This document shows positions 2,020 to 9,134 of a stretch of 60,291 nt of DNA, piece by piece. Each line of letters opens with the position of its first letter. Position 1 is the first letter of the stretch. The notes under the pieces are model-generated. The model was not told the origin of the DNA. It did not search any database and worked only from the letters and a program-made list of their open reading frames with translations. The translations under genes were made by a program, and so were the position numbers. Location of the stretch: IMG/VR virus record IMGVR_UViG_3300045931_000347, positions 1-60,291 of that record; one strand, written 5' to 3'. This stretch comes from a virus. Its lineage: Duplodnaviria; Caudoviricetes.

Positions 2020-2201
2020 CGCCTATGGTCGCCTCCGCCCTGGTCGGGGCCGGGGTCCTGCTTGTCGTCGCCGGGTTGGTGTGGCTGTTCGGGCCGTACG
2101 GGCTGCTGGGCTGCGGGGTCGTCCTGGTCACCCTGGGGCTGCTTCTACCGGTGAGGGAGCGGCGTGGCGAACCTTCTGACCCTGCTGCGCCGCAAGCCTG
2201 A
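2016..2201 (+). CDS. Small two-TM membrane protein
   Basis: GTGA overlap with terL stop; hydrophobic; sits between terL and portal. Confidence 0.6.
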   Translation: MTPMVASALVGAGVLLVVAGLVWLFGPYGLLGCGVVLVTLGLLLPVRERRGEPSDPAAPQA

Positions 2202-5200
2202 GATCTCCCGGCTGAGCCAGCAGGACGTCCTCGACCTGTTCGCGCAGCAGCCGTACCTGGGCTACTCCACCTCGGTCTACACCACGGGTGGGCGCAAGAC
2301 CGAGAAGATCCCCAACTCCTACGCCGCCTACGCCGAGACCGCCTACTGCTCCTCCAGCGTGGTCGGCGCGGTGATGCGGGTGCGGCGCGACATCTTCCGC
2401 CAGGCCCGGTTCACCTGGCGGGAGCAGACCGAGGACGGCACCGGCGTGCTCATGCACGACGACGCCCTGGCCGTGCTCGAACGCCCGTGGCCCAACGGCA
2501 CCACCGGCGAGCTGCTCGTCAAGATGATCACCGACGTGGATCTGTGCGGGAACAGTTTCATCGTCAATGAGGGCGAGCGGCTGCGCTGGCGACGTCCCGA
2601 CTGGATGTACCTGGTCCTCTCCGGTGACCCCGAGGTCGACGTGGACGTGGACGTGATCGGCTACGTCTACACCCCCGGCGGTTGTGACATCCGGCAGGGA
2701 ACCCCGTACCTGCCGGAGAACGTGTGCCACTGGTCGCCGATCCCGGCCTGGGGTGCCCAGTACATCGGCCAGTCGTGGATGGTCTCCGCCCTGAAGGACA
2801 TCCAGGCCGACAAGGCCGCCACCGACCACAAGCTCGCGTTCTTCACCAACGGCGCCACTTTGGGCCCGATCTTCGTCCTGCCGCCGTCGATGACGCCGGA
2901 GCAGTTCAAGAAGTTCCGCGAGGCCAACGACGAGGCCCACGTCGGCGCGGACAACGCCTACAAGCCCCTCTATATCGGTGGCGGGGCAACTGTGACGATG
3001 TCCGCGTCGACGTTTCAGCAGCTGGAGCTGAAGGCGACCCAGGGGGCCGGCGAGACGCGGATAGCCGCTCTAGCGGGCGTTCATCCCGCTATCGTCGGAC
3101 TGTCCGAAGGGCTGGGGGGCTCCTCGCTGAACGCGGGCAACTTCACCGCGGCCCGCCGGATCACCTCCGACATCACGATGATGCCGCTGTGGCAGGACGT
3201 GTGCAGCGCCCTGTCCACCTTCGTCGAGATCCCCGACGGCTACGAGCTGTGGATCCGCGAGTCGGCGATCCCGTTCCTGCGTGAGGACGCCAAGGACGCC
3301 GCCGACATCGCCTCAGTCAACGCGCAGATGATCACGTCGTTGGTGCGGGAGGGCTACGAACCCGAGTCGGCCCAGCGCTACGCGATCACCCGCAACCCGA
3401 CCGACCTCAAGCACTCCGGCCTCATGTCGGTGCAACTGCAGCCCCCGGGCTCCGAGCAGGTCGCCGAAGAGGAATCTGGTGGCTTCTACTTCGATGAGGG
3501 GCAGCCGCAGGACCTGACCACCTTGCGGTCCGAGCTCTTCCGCGACGCCCGGTTCGAGTCCCTGCACAAGCGGGGCCGCGGCGGCCGGTTCGTCAAGATG
3601 GTCGATCGGATCTTCGAGGCGTTGACCCAATGGGCCGACGCCGGCATGGACGATGACTCCGATCCGCTGGAGGGCTTCAAGCGCGAACACCTCCGCGAGG
3701 CACTGAAGGCGCGCGGCATCACCCCGAAGCGCGGGGGCACGGAGGGGGATTTCAAGGCCCAGCTTCGCCAGGACGTGCGGGACGTGGTCGGCGGGAAGAA
3801 GACCGCACCCACCCCGGTCAAGAAGGCAGCCAAGAAGGCCGCTCCGGAAGCTGTTCCGCGTGGGGTTGAGATCGAAAACGATATCCGCGCGGCCTTCCGC
3901 GACCTGGTGGGCCGGACCGACCTGCCAAAGCCGGACGGAGCGAACAACCTGCACGACGCCTTCCGCGAGGAGGGATGGGTTTCGCTCGCCGACATCCGCG
4001 ACGCCCTCGGCGAGAAGTTCAACCGCACCGAGGTGGATGCGGCGCTTCGGCGGATGGTCACCGGCGACGACCCGTCGGCGCGGGTCATCCCCCAGGCCGC
4101 CCGGCACGGGCTGATGCAACGTGACCACGATGCCGCACTCAAGGGATTCGGTGACGCGGACCAGCACTGGCTGAAGATCGCCGACCCGTCACCGCGGGCC
4201 GCGAAGCCCGACGAGAAGCCAACCCCAAAGAAGGCCACCTTCGACGCCGCCGACGTTGCCGAGCAGGTCGCGGCCCAGTCCTCCGAAGAGGACGTCATCG
4301 GGCTCCTGAGTGCTGACCCCACCCTCACGGCGGCGAAGCTCCGCAAGGTCGCCGACGAGTTGGACATCGACATCCCGGAGAACAAGCGGGCCAAGACCTC
4401 GATCCTGCTGCACATCGCCGAGCACGCACCGAGGGGTGACGCTAAGCCGAACCCCGACGGTCTTGACGGGATGGATGAGGCCAAGCTGCGCTCCTACGCG
4501 CAGGAGTGGGACATCCCGAAGGCCCGGGAGAAGTCGGCCGCGCAACTGCGCAAGGAGCTGCGCGAGAAGGGCATCGGCTCACCGGCGGTGGAGCAGGCCA
4601 AGCGTCGCGCGGAGGCCGGCCCGGAGCCTTCCAGAGAGAGCCTGTCGCAGGACGAGCCGACCCGGCGGGTGCAGATCCAGAACCGGATCCGGGCCGCCTA
4701 CTCCGACCTGCTCCGGGAGCAGGGCAAGCGTCCCCCGGACGAGTACGGGGGTGGCTGGGTCAACCTCGCCGACCTGCGGGACCGGCTTGCTGACGACCTC
4801 TCCCGCGACGAGTTGGACACGCATCTCGTGACGCTGGCCCGGGTCAAAGGGGTCCAGATAGTCCCGGAGTCCAACCAGAAGACGTTGACCCAGCGCCAAC
4901 GCGACGCCTCGATCATGATCGGCAACCAGGACAGGCATCTGATCTCGATCCTCGACCCGACCCCGAAGACGGCCGAGCAGTACCGGGACATGGGCTTTCC
5001 CGTCGAGGGCCCGCCCCACCCGTCGAGGGCCCGCCCCAAGGTTGACGTCCACGGGGACCTGACGCCCACGAAGAAGGCGCCACCGAGAGATCTACCCAGT
5101 GGTGGCGACATCGAGACGGTCGGAAGCGTCAAGGAACTCACTCTGACCCAGATCGCGCGAGGCGAACATCTCACGCCCGCAGGCCGCCGCGCTCTCGACG

Positions 5201-8040
5201 CACTAGGGCCGGAAGGTCACCCGCGCATCGCCGCTATTCCCGACACCGAGCAGAAGATCCGCGAGGCGTATCGCATGCTCGCGGTCCCCGGCACTGGGTT
5301 TGATCACTACGTGGCCTTCACCGACTTGCGGAAGCTCATCGGCGAGCAGGTGCCGCGAGCCGAAGTAGACGACACGCTTCGGCGGATGATGAGGATGCAG
5401 GGCGTCCACATCTCGCCACAGTCGTATGCGCGCGAGAACTATGAGACGCGAAAGCCGGCAGCGCTCATCCTGGGCGGCCAGGAGAACGACGCTATCTGGA
5501 TCGAGGATCCATCGCTTGCCCGGCCCCGGCAGTTCGGCGCCGTGGCCATAGCCGAGGAACTAGCGAACCGACGCAGTGGCGGCCCCCGTGACCCGATGAT
5601 GTCGTTGCTGTCCGACGCCGAACTGCAGGCTGAGGTCGACCGGCGGGCAGCGGCGGATCCCGTGGTCACGCACGACTTAGCGACGCTTCTTCCGGCCAAG
5701 GCGGCGAAGAAGGCGGTGCCTAAAGCTACACCCACCGACACCTCCATCCACCGCCAACTGGACGCGCGTGAGATCGCGAAGGGCCTCGGCTCTGAAGCCG
5801 ACTTCAAGCACGGCACCGGCAGCTACCTCGACGACGTGCAGAAGAAACTCGACGACGGCAAGACCCCAGGACAGGTCGCCCGGGAGGTGGAGGTCAGCGC
5901 CCAGACCTTGGAGAACTCCACCGCCATCCGCTACGGCGGGTCGGGTCAGAGCGCCTTCGTCGTCGACGATCCCGACTACCGGGCGCAGCAGCAGCGCCTC
6001 TACGACGAGGGTATGGCCAAGGTCCGACGACTGCGGGAATTGGCCGAGCGGTTGCGGGCCACGAGGCGGACGCGCGAAGGTGCGCCGGCCCAAAAGGCAG
6101 CTCCCGCTGCACCCGAACCCACCGACCTCACCTCCATCCGAGCACATCGGACCGCAGGCCGGGACCTGGCTGGCACCCTGGACTATGAAGGTCTCTGGGC
6201 CATCCCCTATGTTCAGGGCGAAGGTGATTCGTCACTAGCCGAGATCTGGCGCCAACAGGGCTTTGACGGTCCACCAAGGATGGTCAGTCGGACCGAGTGG
6301 GATCGACTCAAGGCGCAGGGCGGTCGGCCGATCTACCGGGGTGTCCGGGGACGCGTCGGCGGAATCTCAGCCGCGGAGATGGTGGATCGCTACACGAGCG
6401 GCGACCACTATCCCGGGGTTGGGGTGTTCGGGAACGGCTCCTATTTCACCGATAGCGCCAAGACCGCCGGTAGATACTCGACAAGCGAGGCGTATGGCCC
6501 GCTCGCGTTCAACGTGGGCGCCGAGGCGTTCGAGGGCAGCGCGGTCATAGAGGCGATGCTGCTTCCGGATGCCCGGGTGGTCGACTTCCACGATCTGCAG
6601 CGTCAAGGTAAGGCGTTGGGGGTACCCGATGGCTTTACTGGCGTTACCGACCCGCGCTCACTTGTGCTCGGCGACCCCGGCCGGTTGGCGGCAGCGCTGG
6701 GCTACGATGCGATCGTCATCCGAACAGGCGAGGGGACGGGGGACTACGGCAACGAGGTCCTGGTTCTCAACCGTACTGCCACGGCCGTTAGGGGGCCCGA
6801 TGGAGCCCGAGATGTCTCGTCGCCTGGCCGCGATTCTGGGCCTGCACCCAGTCTCGATGCGGGAGCGCCTCAGGGTGGTCGTGGCGGCCCAGCAGGCGCG
6901 AGACTGGGACCACCTTCCGGACGACGTCAAGGTGCTGCTGGCCGAGATCGAGCGCCGACCCAGGTAGGAGCCGAACCCACCGACCTCGCCTCCATCCGGG
7001 CACTGTCCGACCCCGAATCCATGCGTGACGCCCTGGACCTACGCAAGGTAGACGACCTCAAGGCACTGCTGCGCCAAGAGCAGCTGCCGGTGTCGGGACG
7101 CAAACGGGAACTGGTCGACCGACTGGTGGAGCACCTGTCGGGCTCGAAGCCGTCACCCGCGAAGGCGGCCAAGGCAGCAGTGCCCAAGGCGGGCGGGCGG
7201 GCGCCTGCCGCGCCGGTGGTGGCGCGGGACCTGTTCGACGCTGATGACGCCACGGTCACCACGGCCTTGCGGGACGTGTTCGAGGGCCAGTTCGGCCCCT
7301 ACACCACCAAGGTCCAGGTCCGCGTCACCCGCGCCGGCACCAGGGTCGACAAGCGGGGGCGTGAGCACAAGGTCGAACCGTCGATCAGCGTCGACGGCAA
7401 GATCTACGACGCGGATGGAACGGAGATCGGCTACTTCGGCCGCACGATCTCCCCGGTGGAGGTGCACTACCCCGACGGCACCGTGCGGCGCGAGGTCTGG
7501 GCCGACCACAAGATTGTCCAGCTCGGCGGCGGTGACTACGACACCGACCCGGCCCGCTACCACGGCACCGGCTTCGGTGGGGAGTTCAACCGCCGGGCGA
7601 TCGAGTGGTACCGGGCGTCCGGAGTCCACGGGATCAGCCAGACCGACGAGAACGGCTACGTGTGGGCGTCGCAGGGCTTCAACTTCAGCCGAGGCGGAAC
7701 GGTCCCCGACTACCTGGCCGACAACATCCGCACGTTGATCTCGGACCTGCGCGCCGGCAGGACCACCAGCGAAGCGACCAAGGACGAGTACCGCACCCTA
7801 CCGAAGCAGATCCGCGACGCCCCTGACCTGGATGCGCAGATCGCCGCCGCCGAGGAGCTGCTCACCCGGGCGTCGGGTAAGCCCGGAGATCCCGGGTACC
7901 CGACCGCGTACGAGATCTCCCAGCTCGGCCGCAGGCAGGGTCAGCGCGGCAAGGGCGAGGTGTGGTTGGGCAAGCTACTGTTCGTCTCGGCCGATGAGAT
8001 GATCCTCAACCCGGACTCGGGCGAGGTGGTAGAGAAATGA
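2164..8040 (+). CDS. HK97-type portal protein (about aa 1-430) fused to a multidomain cargo (3 winged-helix-like repeats, SAP-like, ART-like, GNAT-like)
   Basis: Portal motifs RPWPNGTT, DLCGNSFI, FFTNGA, IAALAGVHPAIVG; ART-like IYRG..GVFGNGSYFT..GYDAI..NEVLV; SAP-like KVDDLKALLRQEQLPVSGRKRELVDRL; GNAT-like YHGTGFGGEF..GYVWASQGFNF. Confidence 0.85.
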   Translation: MANLLTLLRRKPEISRLSQQDVLDLFAQQPYLGYSTSVYTTGGRKTEKIPNSYAAYAETAYCSSSVVGAVMRVRRDIFRQARFTWREQTEDGTGVLMHDDALAVLERPWPNGTTGELLVKMITDVDLCGNSFIVNEGERLRWRRPDWMYLVLSGDPEVDVDVDVIGYVYTPGGCDIRQGTPYLPENVCHWSPIPAWGAQYIGQSWMVSALKDIQADKAATDHKLAFFTNGATLGPIFVLPPSMTPEQFKKFREANDEAHVGADNAYKPLYIGGGATVTMSASTFQQLELKATQGAGETRIAALAGVHPAIVGLSEGLGGSSLNAGNFTAARRITSDITMMPLWQDVCSALSTFVEIPDGYELWIRESAIPFLREDAKDAADIASVNAQMITSLVREGYEPESAQRYAITRNPTDLKHSGLMSVQLQPPGSEQVAEEESGGFYFDEGQPQDLTTLRSELFRDARFESLHKRGRGGRFVKMVDRIFEALTQWADAGMDDDSDPLEGFKREHLREALKARGITPKRGGTEGDFKAQLRQDVRDVVGGKKTAPTPVKKAAKKAAPEAVPRGVEIENDIRAAFRDLVGRTDLPKPDGANNLHDAFREEGWVSLADIRDALGEKFNRTEVDAALRRMVTGDDPSARVIPQAARHGLMQRDHDAALKGFGDADQHWLKIADPSPRAAKPDEKPTPKKATFDAADVAEQVAAQSSEEDVIGLLSADPTLTAAKLRKVADELDIDIPENKRAKTSILLHIAEHAPRGDAKPNPDGLDGMDEAKLRSYAQEWDIPKAREKSAAQLRKELREKGIGSPAVEQAKRRAEAGPEPSRESLSQDEPTRRVQIQNRIRAAYSDLLREQGKRPPDEYGGGWVNLADLRDRLADDLSRDELDTHLVTLARVKGVQIVPESNQKTLTQRQRDASIMIGNQDRHLISILDPTPKTAEQYRDMGFPVEGPPHPSRARPKVDVHGDLTPTKKAPPRDLPSGGDIETVGSVKELTLTQIARGEHLTPAGRRALDALGPEGHPRIAAIPDTEQKIREAYRMLAVPGTGFDHYVAFTDLRKLIGEQVPRAEVDDTLRRMMRMQGVHISPQSYARENYETRKPAALILGGQENDAIWIEDPSLARPRQFGAVAIAEELANRRSGGPRDPMMSLLSDAELQAEVDRRAAADPVVTHDLATLLPAKAAKKAVPKATPTDTSIHRQLDAREIAKGLGSEADFKHGTGSYLDDVQKKLDDGKTPGQVAREVEVSAQTLENSTAIRYGGSGQSAFVVDDPDYRAQQQRLYDEGMAKVRRLRELAERLRATRRTREGAPAQKAAPAAPEPTDLTSIRAHRTAGRDLAGTLDYEGLWAIPYVQGEGDSSLAEIWRQQGFDGPPRMVSRTEWDRLKAQGGRPIYRGVRGRVGGISAAEMVDRYTSGDHYPGVGVFGNGSYFTDSAKTAGRYSTSEAYGPLAFNVGAEAFEGSAVIEAMLLPDARVVDFHDLQRQGKALGVPDGFTGVTDPRSLVLGDPGRLAAALGYDAIVIRTGEGTGDYGNEVLVLNRTATAVRGPDGARDVSSPGRDSGPAPSLDAGAPQGGRGGPAGARLGPPSGRRQGAAGRDRAPTQVGAEPTDLASIRALSDPESMRDALDLRKVDDLKALLRQEQLPVSGRKRELVDRLVEHLSGSKPSPAKAAKAAVPKAGGRAPAAPVVARDLFDADDATVTTALRDVFEGQFGPYTTKVQVRVTRAGTRVDKRGREHKVEPSISVDGKIYDADGTEIGYFGRTISPVEVHYPDGTVRREVWADHKIVQLGGGDYDTDPARYHGTGFGGEFNRRAIEWYRASGVHGISQTDENGYVWASQGFNFSRGGTVPDYLADNIRTLISDLRAGRTTSEATKDEYRTLPKQIRDAPDLDAQIAAAEELLTRASGKPGDPGYPTAYEISQLGRRQGQRGKGEVWLGKLLFVSADEMILNPDSGEVVEK
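4999..5038 (+). repeat. Perfect 20-bp tandem duplication inside the portal fusion gene
   Basis: CCCGTCGAGGGCCCGCCCCA at 4999-5018 and 5019-5038. Confidence 0.95.
6113..6145 (+). repeat. 33-bp direct repeat, left copy, flanking ART cassette
   Basis: CCGAACCCACCGACCTCACCTCCATCCGAGCAC; 31/33 identical to 6971-7003. Confidence 0.92.
6800..6967 (+). CDS. Overprinted 55-aa protein, candidate immunity/antitoxin for the ART-like domain
   Basis: ATG at 6800 (or 6812 with GGAG upstream); MEPEMSRRLAAILGLH...LPDDVKVLLAEIERRPR looks protein-like while the portal frame here is G/R/P/A-rich; stop falls just before the right repeat. Confidence 0.6.
   Translation: MEPEMSRRLAAILGLHPVSMRERLRVVVAAQQARDWDHLPDDVKVLLAEIERRPR
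6971..7003 (+). repeat. 33-bp direct repeat, right copy
   Basis: CCGAACCCACCGACCTCGCCTCCATCCGGGCAC. Confidence 0.92.
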
Positions 8041-8579
8041 CCGTCCCCGTGGTCCGCTCCGTCGCCGATCCGCAGACGGTGCGGCGTCAGAACGAGCTGT
8101 CCGACCTCTACCACGGCTGGCCCGCAGATGACCCAGATGATGATCCGGAGTTCGTCGCCCAGGCCCGGGAGATCATGGGCCTGGCGCCATTGGGCGAGGA
8201 GACCGCGGCCCGCAGTGGTGGGGACGTTCTTGATCTGATCATCCGCACCGCGGTCGACGAGAGCCTCACCCAGGAAGACCTCGACTTCCTCTACGAGGCG
8301 ATGCGGGCCGCCGGTCGCGACGTCACCCCCGGCCGCGACGAGTTGCACCACTACTGGACCCGGGGCGAGGGTTTGGCCAAGTGGGCGAGCTCACCTACGC
8401 CGTGGAGAACACTACTGGCCCAGCTGGTGGAGCACGTGAAGCCACCCAAGCCGCTGACGGTCCTGAAAAAGTGGACGTCCCGCTGGTTCATCGAGGTGTT
8501 TGGCTACGCCGCCGGGTCGGACAAGAATCGGGTCGCTCACGGCAGGCCGCCGCGCGGCAACCGGGTCGGGCCCGGATAG
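8037..8579 (+). CDS. Head-module protein; acidic N-terminus may be an immunity module
   Basis: ATGA overlap with portal fusion stop; LHHYWTRGEGLAKW segment resembles a domain of actinophage head-module genes. Confidence 0.65.
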   Translation: MTVPVVRSVADPQTVRRQNELSDLYHGWPADDPDDDPEFVAQAREIMGLAPLGEETAARSGGDVLDLIIRTAVDESLTQEDLDFLYEAMRAAGRDVTPGRDELHHYWTRGEGLAKWASSPTPWRTLLAQLVEHVKPPKPLTVLKKWTSRWFIEVFGYAAGSDKNRVAHGRPPRGNRVGPG

Positions 8580-8588
8580 GAGGTCCGG

Positions 8589-9134
8589 GTGGAGGCGCAG
8601 CGGCGCGAGTACAGGCGCGACCCGAAGGGCACCTCCACCGGCGGCCAGTTCACCGTCACCACCGGTTCGGCCCCCAGCAAGGAACGCCAAGGTCGCGCAC
8701 CCCGTCGGGTGCAGGAGCAGGTTGCGCCGGCCGCGTCACGGCGGTTCACAACCCTGTCCCGGGATGACGACAACGACGCCGCAACGGTCAAGGAGCTCCA
8801 GCAGGTCCTGACCGCACTCGGTATGGGCAGCCTGAAACTCGACGGGAAGTTTGGCCCCAACACCGAGGCCGCGGTCAAGGCGGCCCAACGCCGCCTGGGG
8901 CTCAAACCCACCGGCAAAGCCTCCAAGACGCTGGTGAACAAGCTGCTCAACGCCTACGACCTGTCCCCGTGCGTGAAGCGATCGGAGGACCCCATGAGCG
9001 AGTACGACATCCTCCGGGCGGTCACCGAAGAAGAGGTCGACCTCGACGAGGACCTGGAGGATCTCCTGGCCGGTCTGAGCGACGACGAGGTCGACGAGCT
9101 CGGCGCCCTGGCCGAGGAAGGCGGCGACGAATGA
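8589..9134 (+). CDS. Peptidoglycan-binding domain protein
   Basis: VKELQQVL..LG..DGKFGPNTEAAVKAAQRRLGLKPTG is a PGBD signature; AGGAGG RBS. Confidence 0.8.
   Translation: MEAQRREYRRDPKGTSTGGQFTVTTGSAPSKERQGRAPRRVQEQVAPAASRRFTTLSRDDDNDAATVKELQQVLTALGMGSLKLDGKFGPNTEAAVKAAQRRLGLKPTGKASKTLVNKLLNAYDLSPCVKRSEDPMSEYDILRAVTEEEVDLDEDLEDLLAGLSDDEVDELGALAEEGGDE

What the first reader, a model, noticed from the sequence alone, without database searches (positions are those of the whole stretch)
6113..7003. Toxin plus hidden immunity cassette inserted in frame inside the portal gene
Seen: 33-bp direct repeats (6113-6145 and 6971-7003, 31/33 identical, 858 bp apart, a multiple of 3) bracket the ART-like domain. 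The last 170 bp inside them look like off-frame filler in the portal frame but encode a protein-like 55-aa ORF (6800-6967) in another frame, with its own SD/ATG and a stop just before the right repeat. Inference: a two-gene toxin-immunity module was captured, with the toxin now reading through its own immunity gene so downstream SAP and GNAT modules stay fused. Recombination between the repeats would excise it cleanly in frame, suggesting a mechanism for stacking effectors on the portal.
Basis: partly seen in the sequence, partly recalled or inferred. Interest (0 to 1): 0.9.

Follow-up and report, generated by a model that had tools for sequence, protein, structure and literature searches.

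The report
Small gene nested inside phage portal fusion
A soil phage's giant portal-fusion gene reads straight through a conserved small gene in the wrong frame, so a former two-gene enzyme-plus-partner module now sits in the middle of one long virion protein.

Summary
The 33-bp direct repeats (6113-6145, 6971-7003; 31/33; 858 bp apart) are real and beyond chance. In 6800-6967 the codon-position GC pattern switches from the portal frame to the frame of the 55-aa ORF.

The 55-aa ORF belongs to a real family of small proteins: 51 database members and a confident three-helix model. In other phages this family lies directly behind the same ADP-ribosyltransferase-like (ART-like) domain, usually with an ATGA stop/start overlap. 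In the window, in L002 and in L031 the host ORF has no stop and crosses the small gene one base out of frame. Between these three, the nested frame is under purifying selection (dN/dS 0.23-0.34) and the portal-frame peptide is not (1.4-2.9). Contigs from three other soil runs reproduce the junction exactly.

Not shown:
- That the small protein is an immunity protein. 13 of 23 ART-like loci lack it, and in some loci it is fused to the next head gene.
- That the repeats act as an excision device. Only this window has them, and no deleted form was seen.

Verdict: a new variant of known phage effector/partner cassettes.

The parts
2164..8040 (+). Giant portal-fusion (polyvalent) ORF, 1958 aa. Portal domain at aa 89-383, then repeated domains, the ART-like domain, the read-through segment, SAP and a C-terminal module.
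   Evidence: ORF list and translation. Pfam Phage_portal 3e-27 and SAP 6e-10. PHROG portal families. An identical protein comes from a second assembler.
6113..6145 (+). Left copy of the 33-bp direct repeat (portal-frame peptide EPTDLTSIRA), immediately upstream of the ART-like domain. This is the extra, window-specific copy.
   Evidence: No counterpart upstream of the domain in L002, P0204, P0006, P0008 or P0010.
6127..6795 (+). ART-like enzymatic domain in the portal frame.
   Evidence: phmmer against 1.84 billion representatives gave 1354 hits at E<=1e-3. HMM placement. AlphaFold2 pLDDT 90.9. Top Foldseek PDB hits are tankyrase/PARP, RES toxin, diphtheria toxin catalytic domain and NatT, at weak scores. 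Pfam PARP and ART-PolyVal hits are below threshold. Third-position GC is 0.74 against 0.87-0.88 in the flanks.
6790..6795 (+). Shine-Dalgarno-like AGGGGG, 4 nt before the nested ATG. L002 has AGGAGG at the same place.
6800..6967 (+). Nested 55-aa gene, whose codons start one base after the portal codons. Member of a small three-helix protein family that normally follows this ART-like domain as a separate gene.
   Evidence: GC by codon position. Homologues in L002, L003, L005, L009, L011, L012, L014, L018, L024, L030, L031, L033, L035 and L036. 51 database proteins, mostly 53-60 aa. dN/dS 0.34, 0.23 and 0.32 in this frame. AlphaFold2 pLDDT 93.6, three helices.
6796..6969 (+). Portal-frame read-through segment: a Gly/Arg/Pro/Ala-rich peptide of about 58 aa that serves only as a connector.
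   Evidence: Translation. Portal-frame third-position GC 0.41. dN/dS 1.42 to 2.94 in this frame. No ATG, GTG or TTG in this frame within the segment (my reading).
6971..7003 (+). Right copy of the 33-bp repeat. This is the native N-terminal edge of the SAP module.
   Evidence: The edge and its continuation are conserved in L002, L003, P0006 and P0208.
7033..7137 (+). SAP (helix-extended-helix) domain, aa 1624-1658.
   Evidence: Pfam SAP 6e-10.
8037..8579 (+). Next gene, 180 aa, with a phrog_6439 domain. Its start overlaps the portal stop by 4 nt. In L005 and L033 the homologous protein carries the small three-helix domain at its N-terminus.
   Evidence: L005 and L033.

Best explanation
A two-gene module has been turned into an internal module of a polyvalent portal protein. 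The module is a C-terminal ART-like effector domain followed by a translationally coupled small gene for a three-helix partner.

The standard form. The host gene stops at an ATGA or GTGA overlap with the small gene's start. Different virion proteins carry the domain in this form (MuF-type, Mu-type portal, VG15, or stand-alone).

The form in this window. In this phage and in L002, the host frame enters the small gene one base before its ATG. That differs by a net one base (mod 3) from the standard frame, so the TGA is not read. The host ORF then crosses all 55 codons in a frame that is open about one time in three by composition alone. It emerges behind the small gene's stop into the SAP module and the C-terminal module.

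Consequences. The out-of-frame stretch is an unconstrained Gly/Arg/Pro-rich connector. The small gene keeps its own Shine-Dalgarno and ATG and stays under purifying selection, so it is most likely still translated from inside the portal mRNA.

Inferred function. The small protein binds and restrains the ART-like enzyme in the producing cell, in an immunity-like way, until the fusion is packaged and injected.

The repeats. The 33-bp repeat is a duplicated N-edge of the SAP module. It marks the rearrangement joint in this phage only. It would allow an in-frame deletion, but none was seen.

Shown: anatomy, homology, linkage, selection and reproducibility. Inferred: translation of the nested gene, binding, inhibition and enzymatic activity.
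For: 1. Frame switch in composition. Third-position GC in 6800-6967 is 0.88 in the nested frame and 0.41 in the portal frame. L031 shows the same pattern.

2. Linkage, forward. Of 23 distinct locus groups fetched with the ART-like domain alone, 10 have the small ORF at or just after the host gene's stop.

3. Linkage, reverse. All 6 loci fetched with the small protein alone (4 of them new contigs) have an ART-like domain ending 9-43 nt upstream.

4. Junction type. Of the 12 stop-terminated groups, 8 have a 4-nt ATGA/GTGA overlap, 1 a 1-nt overlap, 1 abuts, and 2 have gaps of 15 and 59 nt.

5. Varied hosts. The N-terminal parts of the host proteins differ: Phage_min_cap2, Phage_Mu_F, VG15, Portal_Mu, or none. 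The pair therefore travels with the domain, not with one host gene.

6. Read-through in relatives. L002 has the same junction and the same frame offset as the window. L031 has the same frame offset. The post-domain peptide of P0204 aligns without gaps to the window's read-through peptide.

7. Selection. dN/dS in the nested frame is 0.34 (window vs L002), 0.23 (window vs L031) and 0.32 (L002 vs L031). In the portal frame it is 1.42, 1.82 and 2.94. For comparison, the ART-like domain gives 0.15.

8. The small family is real. There are 51 proteins, mostly 53-60 aa and called as separate genes, including two in actinomycete genomes. The AlphaFold2 model has pLDDT 93.6.

9. Downstream modules need the read-through. 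The connector has no start codon in the portal frame. The only nearby ATG (7021) lacks a Shine-Dalgarno and cuts into the conserved SAP edge (my reading).

10. Reproduced sequence.

11. Precedent. [quoted passage not shown] Toxin cassettes move as toxin-immunity pairs (PMC3482391, passages read). ART domains occur in one or many copies in phage polyvalent proteins (PMC5512222, section 9 read).
Against: - 13 of the 23 ART-like locus groups have no adjacent small ORF detectable by the HMM. These include the closest stand-alone form (L004) and a five-copy array (L028). L026 has only a weak match 880 nt away.
- In multi-copy proteins only the last copy is followed by the small ORF (L002, L003, L005).
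- In L005 and L033 the small domain is fused in frame to the phrog_6439 head-module protein. In L012 and L036 it is fused to ORFs of about 1000 aa. That is unusual for an immunity protein.
- The ART assignment is weak. Pfam PARP scores 14.7 bits against a cut-off of 26.7, and ART-PolyVal matches 2 of 44 members at E 0.034. Foldseek E-values are 6e-3 or worse with TM about 0.33. The acidic residue expected in strand 5 is not invariant in the family.
- An open read-through frame is not evidence of selection. It is open in 35% (window), 34% (L002) and 42% (L031) of synonymous resamples, and in 4 of 10 stop-terminated relatives.
- L031 also has a frameshift inside its ART-like domain, so its integrity is uncertain.
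- Translation of the nested ORF was not observed.
Confidence: 0.55

Rival explanations
1. The small three-helix protein is not an inhibitor. It is an assembly adaptor: a docking domain that ties the next head-module protein (the phrog_6439 family) or other cargo to the C-terminal ART-like domain of the portal or MuF protein. In the window it survives as a free adaptor nested in the portal gene.
For: In L005 and L033 the small domain is the N-terminus of a 178-182-aa protein whose C-terminus is the phrog_6439 domain. In L012 and L036 it heads ORFs of 1039 and 933 aa. The window's next gene (8037-8579) carries the same phrog_6439 domain without the small domain. More than half of the ART-like loci lack the small ORF, and only the last domain copy has it.
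Against: Most family members are free-standing proteins of 53-60 aa. The pair also follows stand-alone ART-like genes of 283-339 codons (stop-to-stop) that have no recognisable virion scaffold (L014, L018). ATGA coupling to an enzyme domain is the classic arrangement for an enzyme and its inhibitor.
Confidence: 0.25
2. The nested ORF is a relic with no present function. Only the read-through connector matters, and the intact frame reflects recent shared ancestry.
For: An open alternative frame is cheap in 68% GC DNA. The connector peptide is unconstrained. No expression data exist.
Against: The three read-through copies differ at 30-33% of nucleotides, yet all keep the ATG, the Shine-Dalgarno, the stop and an uninterrupted frame. 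Their dN/dS is 0.23-0.34 and changes are concentrated at third positions (10, 14 and 28 at positions 1, 2 and 3).
Confidence: 0.08
3. The fusion is an assembly or sequencing artefact. In truth the portal gene stops behind the ART-like domain, and the SAP and C-terminal modules form a separate gene.
For: The record is a metagenomic contig, and a single-base error would create this picture.
Against: A second assembler gives the identical 1958-aa protein. Contigs from three other runs cover 6640-6928, and one spans 5674-7235, all with 0 differences and 0 gaps. L002 shows the same read-through junction and P0204 appears to, judged from protein only. The downstream modules have no start codon of their own.
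Confidence: 0.03
4. Programmed ribosomal frameshifting at the junction makes two products: a portal...ART-small fusion ending at 6967 and the full-length protein.
For: Two overlapping open frames meet at a G-rich run (AGGGGGCCC, 6790-6798).
Against: The run is not conserved: L002 has AGGAGGCCA and L031 a different sequence. The small gene keeps its own start and Shine-Dalgarno. Everywhere else it is a separate, coupled gene.
Confidence: 0.03

Closest known systems
MuF polymorphic toxins of temperate phages with downstream small immunity ORFs (Jamet et al. 2017, PMC5576092; passages read)
   Same: A variable C-terminal enzymatic domain on a virion-packaged head protein next to or fused with the portal, followed at once by a small ORF in the same direction. 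ADP-ribosyltransferases are among the toxin domains. Relatives L009 and L011 carry this very module on MuF2 and MuF1 proteins.
   Different: In the window the domain is internal, not C-terminal. The host gene has no stop, and the small gene lies wholly inside it in another frame. Neither the domain nor the small protein matches a Pfam family at threshold. The paper's supplementary toxin tables could not be opened, so I cannot say whether this domain family is listed there.
Polyvalent proteins of phages and conjugative elements (Iyer et al. 2017, PMC5512222; passages and section 9 read)
   Same: A multidomain virion protein built on a portal, with ART, SAP/Rho-N and GNAT-type modules. The ART domain occurs in one or several copies per protein: two copies in L002, L003 and L005, five in L028, and six matched stretches in P0004.
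   Different: The passages I read say nothing of partner or immunity genes for these ARTs; a term search found 0 occurrences of 'immunity protein' in the main text. The ART family described there has a His-Tyr-Asp site, whereas this family has an invariant Arg and Tyr and a variable acidic position.
Toxin-immunity cassettes of polymorphic toxin systems (Zhang et al. 2012, PMC3482391; passages read)
   Same: Toxin-then-immunity gene order, and cassettes that move as pairs so that one recombination brings both.
   Different: Those cassettes replace the 3' end of the toxin gene. Here the pair has been absorbed into the middle of the gene by read-through.
Embedded gene pairs of phages such as the lambda spanin genes Rz/Rz1 (recalled from general knowledge, not from a call)
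   Same: One gene lies entirely inside another in a shifted frame.
   Different: In Rz/Rz1 both frames encode functional, constrained protein. Here only the nested frame is constrained, and the host frame uses the stretch as a spacer.

Membership tests
ADP-ribosyltransferase (ART) superfamily | Sequence match to an ART-clan Pfam family at its gathering score | tested here: not met
   PARP scores 14.7 bits against a cut-off of 26.7 (E 0.022) for the window's domain. ART-PolyVal matches 2 of 44 family members, best E 0.034. No hit. No PDB sequence hit of meaning.
ADP-ribosyltransferase (ART) superfamily | ART fold (split beta-sheet NAD+ pocket) | tested here: inconclusive
   The model is confident (pLDDT 90.9). 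The top Foldseek PDB hits are nearly all ART-superfamily members (tankyrase 1/2, Xre-RES toxin, diphtheria toxin catalytic domain, NatT), but at E 6e-3 to 0.3 and TM about 0.3-0.37.
ADP-ribosyltransferase (ART) superfamily | Catalytic triad on strands 1, 2 and 5 (His/Arg, Tyr/Ser, Glu/Asp) | tested here: inconclusive
   Among 44 sequences, R76 (on strand 72-81) and G109/Y111 (strand 110-113) are invariant. The acidic position before strand 215-218 is Glu in the window but varies across the family. N220 and R221 are invariant instead.
ADP-ribosyltransferase (ART) superfamily | NAD+-dependent ADP-ribosylation or NADase activity | not testable with these tools
   Needs an enzyme assay.
Phage polymorphic toxin plus immunity module (MuF-toxin type) | Variable enzymatic domain at the C-terminus of a virion head protein (MuF or portal) | tested here: met
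   Met in relatives: Phage_min_cap2 (L009), Phage_Mu_F (L011), Portal_Mu (L035) and VG15 (L030), each with the domain at the C-terminus. In the window the domain is internal (aa about 1322-1545 of 1958).
Phage polymorphic toxin plus immunity module (MuF-toxin type) | Small ORF (<150 aa) immediately downstream, same strand, linked to the toxin domain | tested here: met
   10 of 23 ART-fetched groups and 6 of 6 small-ORF-fetched loci show the pair. 8 of 12 stop-terminated groups have an ATGA/GTGA overlap. In the window the ORF is nested (6800-6967).
Phage polymorphic toxin plus immunity module (MuF-toxin type) | Domain is toxic and the small protein neutralises it by binding | not testable with these tools
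   Needs co-expression and binding experiments.
Phage polymorphic toxin plus immunity module (MuF-toxin type) | Carried by a temperate phage | not tested
   I did not look for an integrase or repressor in the window.
Polyvalent proteins (Iyer et al. 2017) | Many effector and DNA-binding domains in one polypeptide of a portal-terminase phage, in a virion-gene context | tested here: met
   The protein has a portal domain, an ART-like domain, SAP and further modules in 1958 aa. It lies between terminase large subunit (436-2016) and the head genes.
Programmed ribosomal frameshift site | Conserved slippery sequence at the frame junction | tested here: not met
   The junction sequences differ among the window, L002 and L031.

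The most novel reading that the evidence does not exclude
Out-of-frame read-through of a coupled immunity gene may be a general evolutionary route. By this route, terminal effector-immunity cassettes of phage head proteins would become internal modules of ever longer polyvalent virion proteins. The nested gene would still be translated from within the portal mRNA and would protect the producing cell. High-GC composition would supply a ready-made open Gly/Arg/Pro connector. Short in-frame boundary repeats, such as the 33-bp pair here, would let the module be lost or exchanged without breaking the fusion.
Probability: 0.3. Interest if true: 0.75.

Novelty: new variant of a known kind. Interest (0 to 1): 0.62.

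Why it matters
It shows, with comparative evidence, how a two-gene effector/partner module can be absorbed into a single giant virion protein without losing the partner gene. The partner's reading frame is reused, one base out of step, as a spacer.

That bears on three things:
- How polyvalent injected proteins grow by adding modules.
- How gene callers miss small functional genes hidden inside long ORFs.
- Where to look for inhibitors of phage-borne NAD+-utilising enzymes.

It also defines two families that Pfam, PHROGs and NCBIfam do not name. One is a widespread ART-like domain with 1354 representative hits. The other is its three-helix partner. Both can now be tested at the bench.

Tried and rejected
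Searches that found nothing:
- Phage GenBank collection: no DNA or protein match for the region, the domain or the small ORF.
- Single-sequence scans of IMG/VR with the domain, the small ORF and the SAP/C-terminal part: no relatives. Alignments were needed.
- PHROGs and NCBIfam: nothing for the domain, the small ORF or the C-terminal module. GNAT was not confirmed by Pfam.
- The PDB fold search with the small protein gave only generic three-helix bundles at E>3.
- A search of 401 sampled genomes of the class of G001 with the small-protein profile gave 0 matches at E<=1e-4. The correct wording is 'not found in those searched'.

Checks that gave no answer:
- Complex prediction with the ART-like domain (A1) and the small protein (A3) scored 0.04 and 0.02, with the verdict 'no answer'. 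This counts neither for nor against binding.
- Read laying showed no joint that skips the 858 bp in the contigs of 4 runs. Contigs drop rare variants, so this is no evidence of absence. The RNA-run contigs (X7, at 5673-5823 and 6233-6450) do not show transcription.
- A scan for the contig of P0204 returned only portal relatives (L037, L038). Its nested ORF therefore could not be checked at the DNA level.

Ideas rejected:
- That an open read-through frame shows selection.
- That the conversion was a simple stop-codon loss at ATGA. The read-through frame is the other alternative frame.

Literature: searches turned up no paper describing an immunity-type gene nested out of frame in a phage portal or polyvalent protein. 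These were keyword searches of an open-access library only.

Left untested: by eye, L006 and L010 have a different small ORF behind the domain that may be a distant relative. It is not significant by the HMM.

Full report
**What the window is.** The window is a complete-looking 60,291-bp viral record from a metagenome, with 68% GC. A single ORF runs from 2164 to 8040 on the + strand (1958 aa, P0001). It has a portal domain at aa 89-383 and a SAP domain at aa 1624-1658 and matches PHROG portal families. It lies between a terminase large subunit gene (436-2016) and head genes. It is therefore a portal-based polyvalent virion protein of the kind described by Iyer et al. 2017 (PMC5512222; passages and section 9 read).

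**The repeats.** The 33-bp direct repeats lie at 6113-6145 and 6971-7003. They are 31/33 identical and 858 bp apart.
- They are the only two copies in the window, with 0 expected by chance.
- The best 33-mer repeat in 40 codon shuffles of the ORF reached at most 26/33.
- Both copies are in the portal frame.

**The nested ORF.** It runs from ATG 6800 to the stop TAG at 6965-6967 and encodes 55 aa. AGGGGG precedes the ATG by 4 nt. Codon-position GC settles which frame evolved as coding. In 6800-6967, third-position GC is 0.88 in the nested frame and 0.41 in the portal frame. In the portal frame it is 0.87 upstream and 0.88 downstream.

**The sequence is reproduced.** A second assembler gives the same 1958-aa protein. 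Contigs from three other soil runs cover the junction with 0 differences and 0 gaps:
- X2 has one 1,562-nt contig spanning 5674-7235.
- X3 has a contig at 6740-6928.
- X4 has a contig at 6640-6833.
These runs belong to different studies, but all are 2023 soil metagenomes and may be one campaign.

**The domain between the repeats.** It matches no Pfam, PHROG or NCBIfam model at threshold. phmmer against 1.84 billion representatives nevertheless finds 1354 proteins at E<=1e-3.
- In most short hits the domain is the C-terminal end of the protein, which stops 2-5 residues after the conserved last strand.
- An AlphaFold2 model built on 44 sequences is confident (pLDDT 90.9).
- Its best PDB matches are almost all ART-superfamily members: tankyrases, a RES toxin, the diphtheria toxin catalytic domain and NatT. 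The scores are weak, with E 6e-3 or worse and TM about 0.33.
- Pfam PARP (E 0.022) and ART-PolyVal (2 of 44 members) appear only below threshold.
- The family keeps an invariant Arg, a Gly-x-Tyr and an Asn-Arg. The acidic residue expected before the last strand varies.
'ART-like' is therefore a reasonable name, but membership is not established.

**Linkage of the small ORF to the domain.** An alignment-based scan of IMG/VR fetched 22 loci with the domain. Genome and metagenome scans added 7 more. I searched six-frame translations of all loci with profiles of the domain and of the small ORF.
- Among 23 distinct locus groups fetched with the domain alone, 10 carry a homologue of the small ORF at or just after the host gene's stop: L002, L003, L005, L009, L011, L012, L014, L018, L024 and L030.
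- 12 carry none: L004, L006, L010, L013, L017, L020, L021, L022, L023, L025, L028 and L029.
- L026 has a weak match 880 nt away.
- In the reverse direction, all 6 loci fetched with the small protein alone have an ART-like domain ending 9-43 nt upstream. Four of them are new contigs: L031, L033, L035 and L036.
- In the 12 stop-terminated groups the junction is a 4-nt ATGA/GTGA overlap in 8, a 1-nt overlap in 1, abutting in 1, and a gap of 15 or 59 nt in 2.
- The host proteins differ: MuF2, MuF1, VG15, Mu-type portal, or none recognisable.
The pair therefore travels with the domain. A profile search of 5.8 billion proteins finds 51 small proteins of this family, mostly 53-60 aa and without Pfam domains. 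Two of them are hypothetical proteins of Micromonospora and Paractinoplanes. The window's copy folds confidently into three helices (pLDDT 93.6), with no informative structural neighbour.

**The read-through state.** The window, L002 and L031 lack the stop, and the host ORF runs on through the small gene.
- L002 is a 1590-aa portal fusion whose domain is 62% identical to the window's.
- In the standard form the host frame is the one that reads TGA inside ATGA. In the read-through form the host codon starts one base before the ATG.
- The conversion was therefore not a simple stop loss. It needed a net one-base change (mod 3) in the domain's tail.
- The window and L002 share the junction peptide (AVR-G/R-PDG) and the position of the Shine-Dalgarno, so the event probably predates their split.
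- P0204 is a 1280-aa portal fusion, 66% identical over the matched part of the query. Its post-domain peptide aligns without gaps to the window's connector. Its DNA could not be fetched.
- L031 also has a frameshift inside the domain, so it is a less clean example.

**Selection.**

| Pair | Codons | dN/dS, nested frame | dN/dS, portal frame |
|---|---|---|---|
| Window vs L002 | 53 | 0.34 (60% aa identity) | 1.42 (38% aa identity) |
| Window vs L031 | 53 | 0.23 | 1.82 |
| L002 vs L031 | 53 | 0.32 | 2.94 |

For window vs L002 there are 52 nucleotide differences among 159, falling 10, 14 and 28 at nested codon positions 1, 2 and 3. The ART-like domain itself gives 0.15.

An open portal frame is not itself evidence of selection. 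Synonymous resampling leaves it open in 35%, 34% and 42% of trials, and 4 of 10 stop-terminated relatives have it open too. This makes the step easy to reach in high-GC DNA.

The downstream SAP and C-terminal modules depend on the read-through. There is no start codon in the portal frame within the connector. The only nearby ATG (7021) has no Shine-Dalgarno and cuts into the conserved SAP edge.

**What the repeats are.** The right copy is the native N-terminal edge of the SAP module. The edge and its continuation recur in L002, L003, P0006 and P0208. The left copy has no counterpart upstream of the domain in L002, P0204, P0006, P0008 or P0010, and L002 has no comparable flanking repeat. The repeat is therefore specific to this phage.

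The most economical reading, which is an inference, is a joint left by one illegitimate crossover. The crossover would be between a genome ending in the SAP edge and a relative carrying ART-small-SAP. An alternative is that the left copy is the stub of a deleted upstream SAP module, because the order SAP-ART-small does exist in L003 and L033.

No such joint was seen in the contigs of four runs, but contigs cannot exclude rare variants.

ART-like followed directly by SAP, without a nested gene, occurs in P0006, in the first copy of L003 and in P0208. The neighbourhood is therefore older than this rearrangement.

**Function.** The pattern has three parts: a virion-borne enzymatic domain, a coupled small gene, and movement as a pair among different head proteins. 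[quoted passage not shown] It also matches the toxin-immunity cassette logic of Zhang et al. 2012 (PMC3482391; passages read).

I therefore favour an inhibitor that keeps the enzyme silent in the producing cell. I put the immunity-type function at about even odds; the alternatives are scored under Rival explanations. The points against it are real:
- More than half of the ART-like loci lack the small ORF.
- Only the last domain copy in a multi-copy protein has it.
- In L005 and L033 the small domain is fused to the phrog_6439 head-module protein, and in L012 and L036 to very long ORFs.
These points fit an adaptor role, which I keep as the main rival. The window's next gene (8037-8579) carries the phrog_6439 domain without the small domain.

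**Comparison and novelty.** The parts are of known kinds: polyvalent portal fusions, ART-type effectors, and effector plus small-partner cassettes. One feature appeared in none of my five keyword searches. It is a partner gene lying wholly inside the effector-bearing ORF, one base out of frame, kept under purifying selection while the host frame uses the same bases as an unconstrained spacer. It recurs in at least two and probably four related phages. The nearest formal analogy, the embedded spanin genes, is recalled rather than tested, and it differs in that both of its frames are constrained. I rate this a new variant of a known kind, of moderate to high interest. The supplementary tables of the MuF paper, which might list this domain, were closed.

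Noticed in passing
window 3850-5500 (about aa 565-680, 835-935, 1025-1120 of the portal fusion): Three homologous domains of about 100 aa, each opening with a similar short helix motif, are spaced along the fusion (read from the translation). They look like repeated DNA-binding-type modules. Their opening motif resembles the SAP-edge peptide that forms the 33-bp repeat.
   Followed up: no
window 6112-6799: The ART-like segment has a lower third-position GC (0.74) than the rest of the ORF (0.87-0.88). This fits a different or more recent origin.
   Followed up: no
L028 1691-6402: Five ART-like domain copies lie in a row in successive ORFs and frames on one metagenome contig, with no small partner ORF.
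   Followed up: no
L031 3281-3984: The ART-like domain is split between two frames near 3550 (HMM positions 95/96). This is either a real frameshift or a contig error. The same locus reads through its small ORF into a HeH module and a phrog_6439 domain.
   Followed up: partly
L002 5835-5853 and 6123-6141: A weak in-frame direct repeat (19 nt, 84%, spacing 288) brackets the extra module between the nested ORF and SAP. Both copies encode a SAP-edge-like peptide. Short boundary motifs may recur at module joints.
   Followed up: no
window 8037-8579: The 180-aa gene after the portal fusion starts with a 4-nt overlap on the portal stop and carries a phrog_6439 domain. PHROGs also finds this domain in head maturation protease and virion structural protein families.
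   Followed up: partly
window 8589-9131: A 181-aa ORF with endolysin-family PHROG hits sits inside the head-gene block.
   Followed up: no
P0002 (identical to the translation of window 6800-6964): The identical 55-aa protein was called as a gene of its own on a separate 915-bp JGI contig. Gene callers see it only when the long ORF is cut away.
   Followed up: no
L006 and L010, just behind the ART-like domain: A different small ORF follows the domain. By eye it shares the layout of the three-helix family, but it is not significant by the HMM.
   Followed up: no
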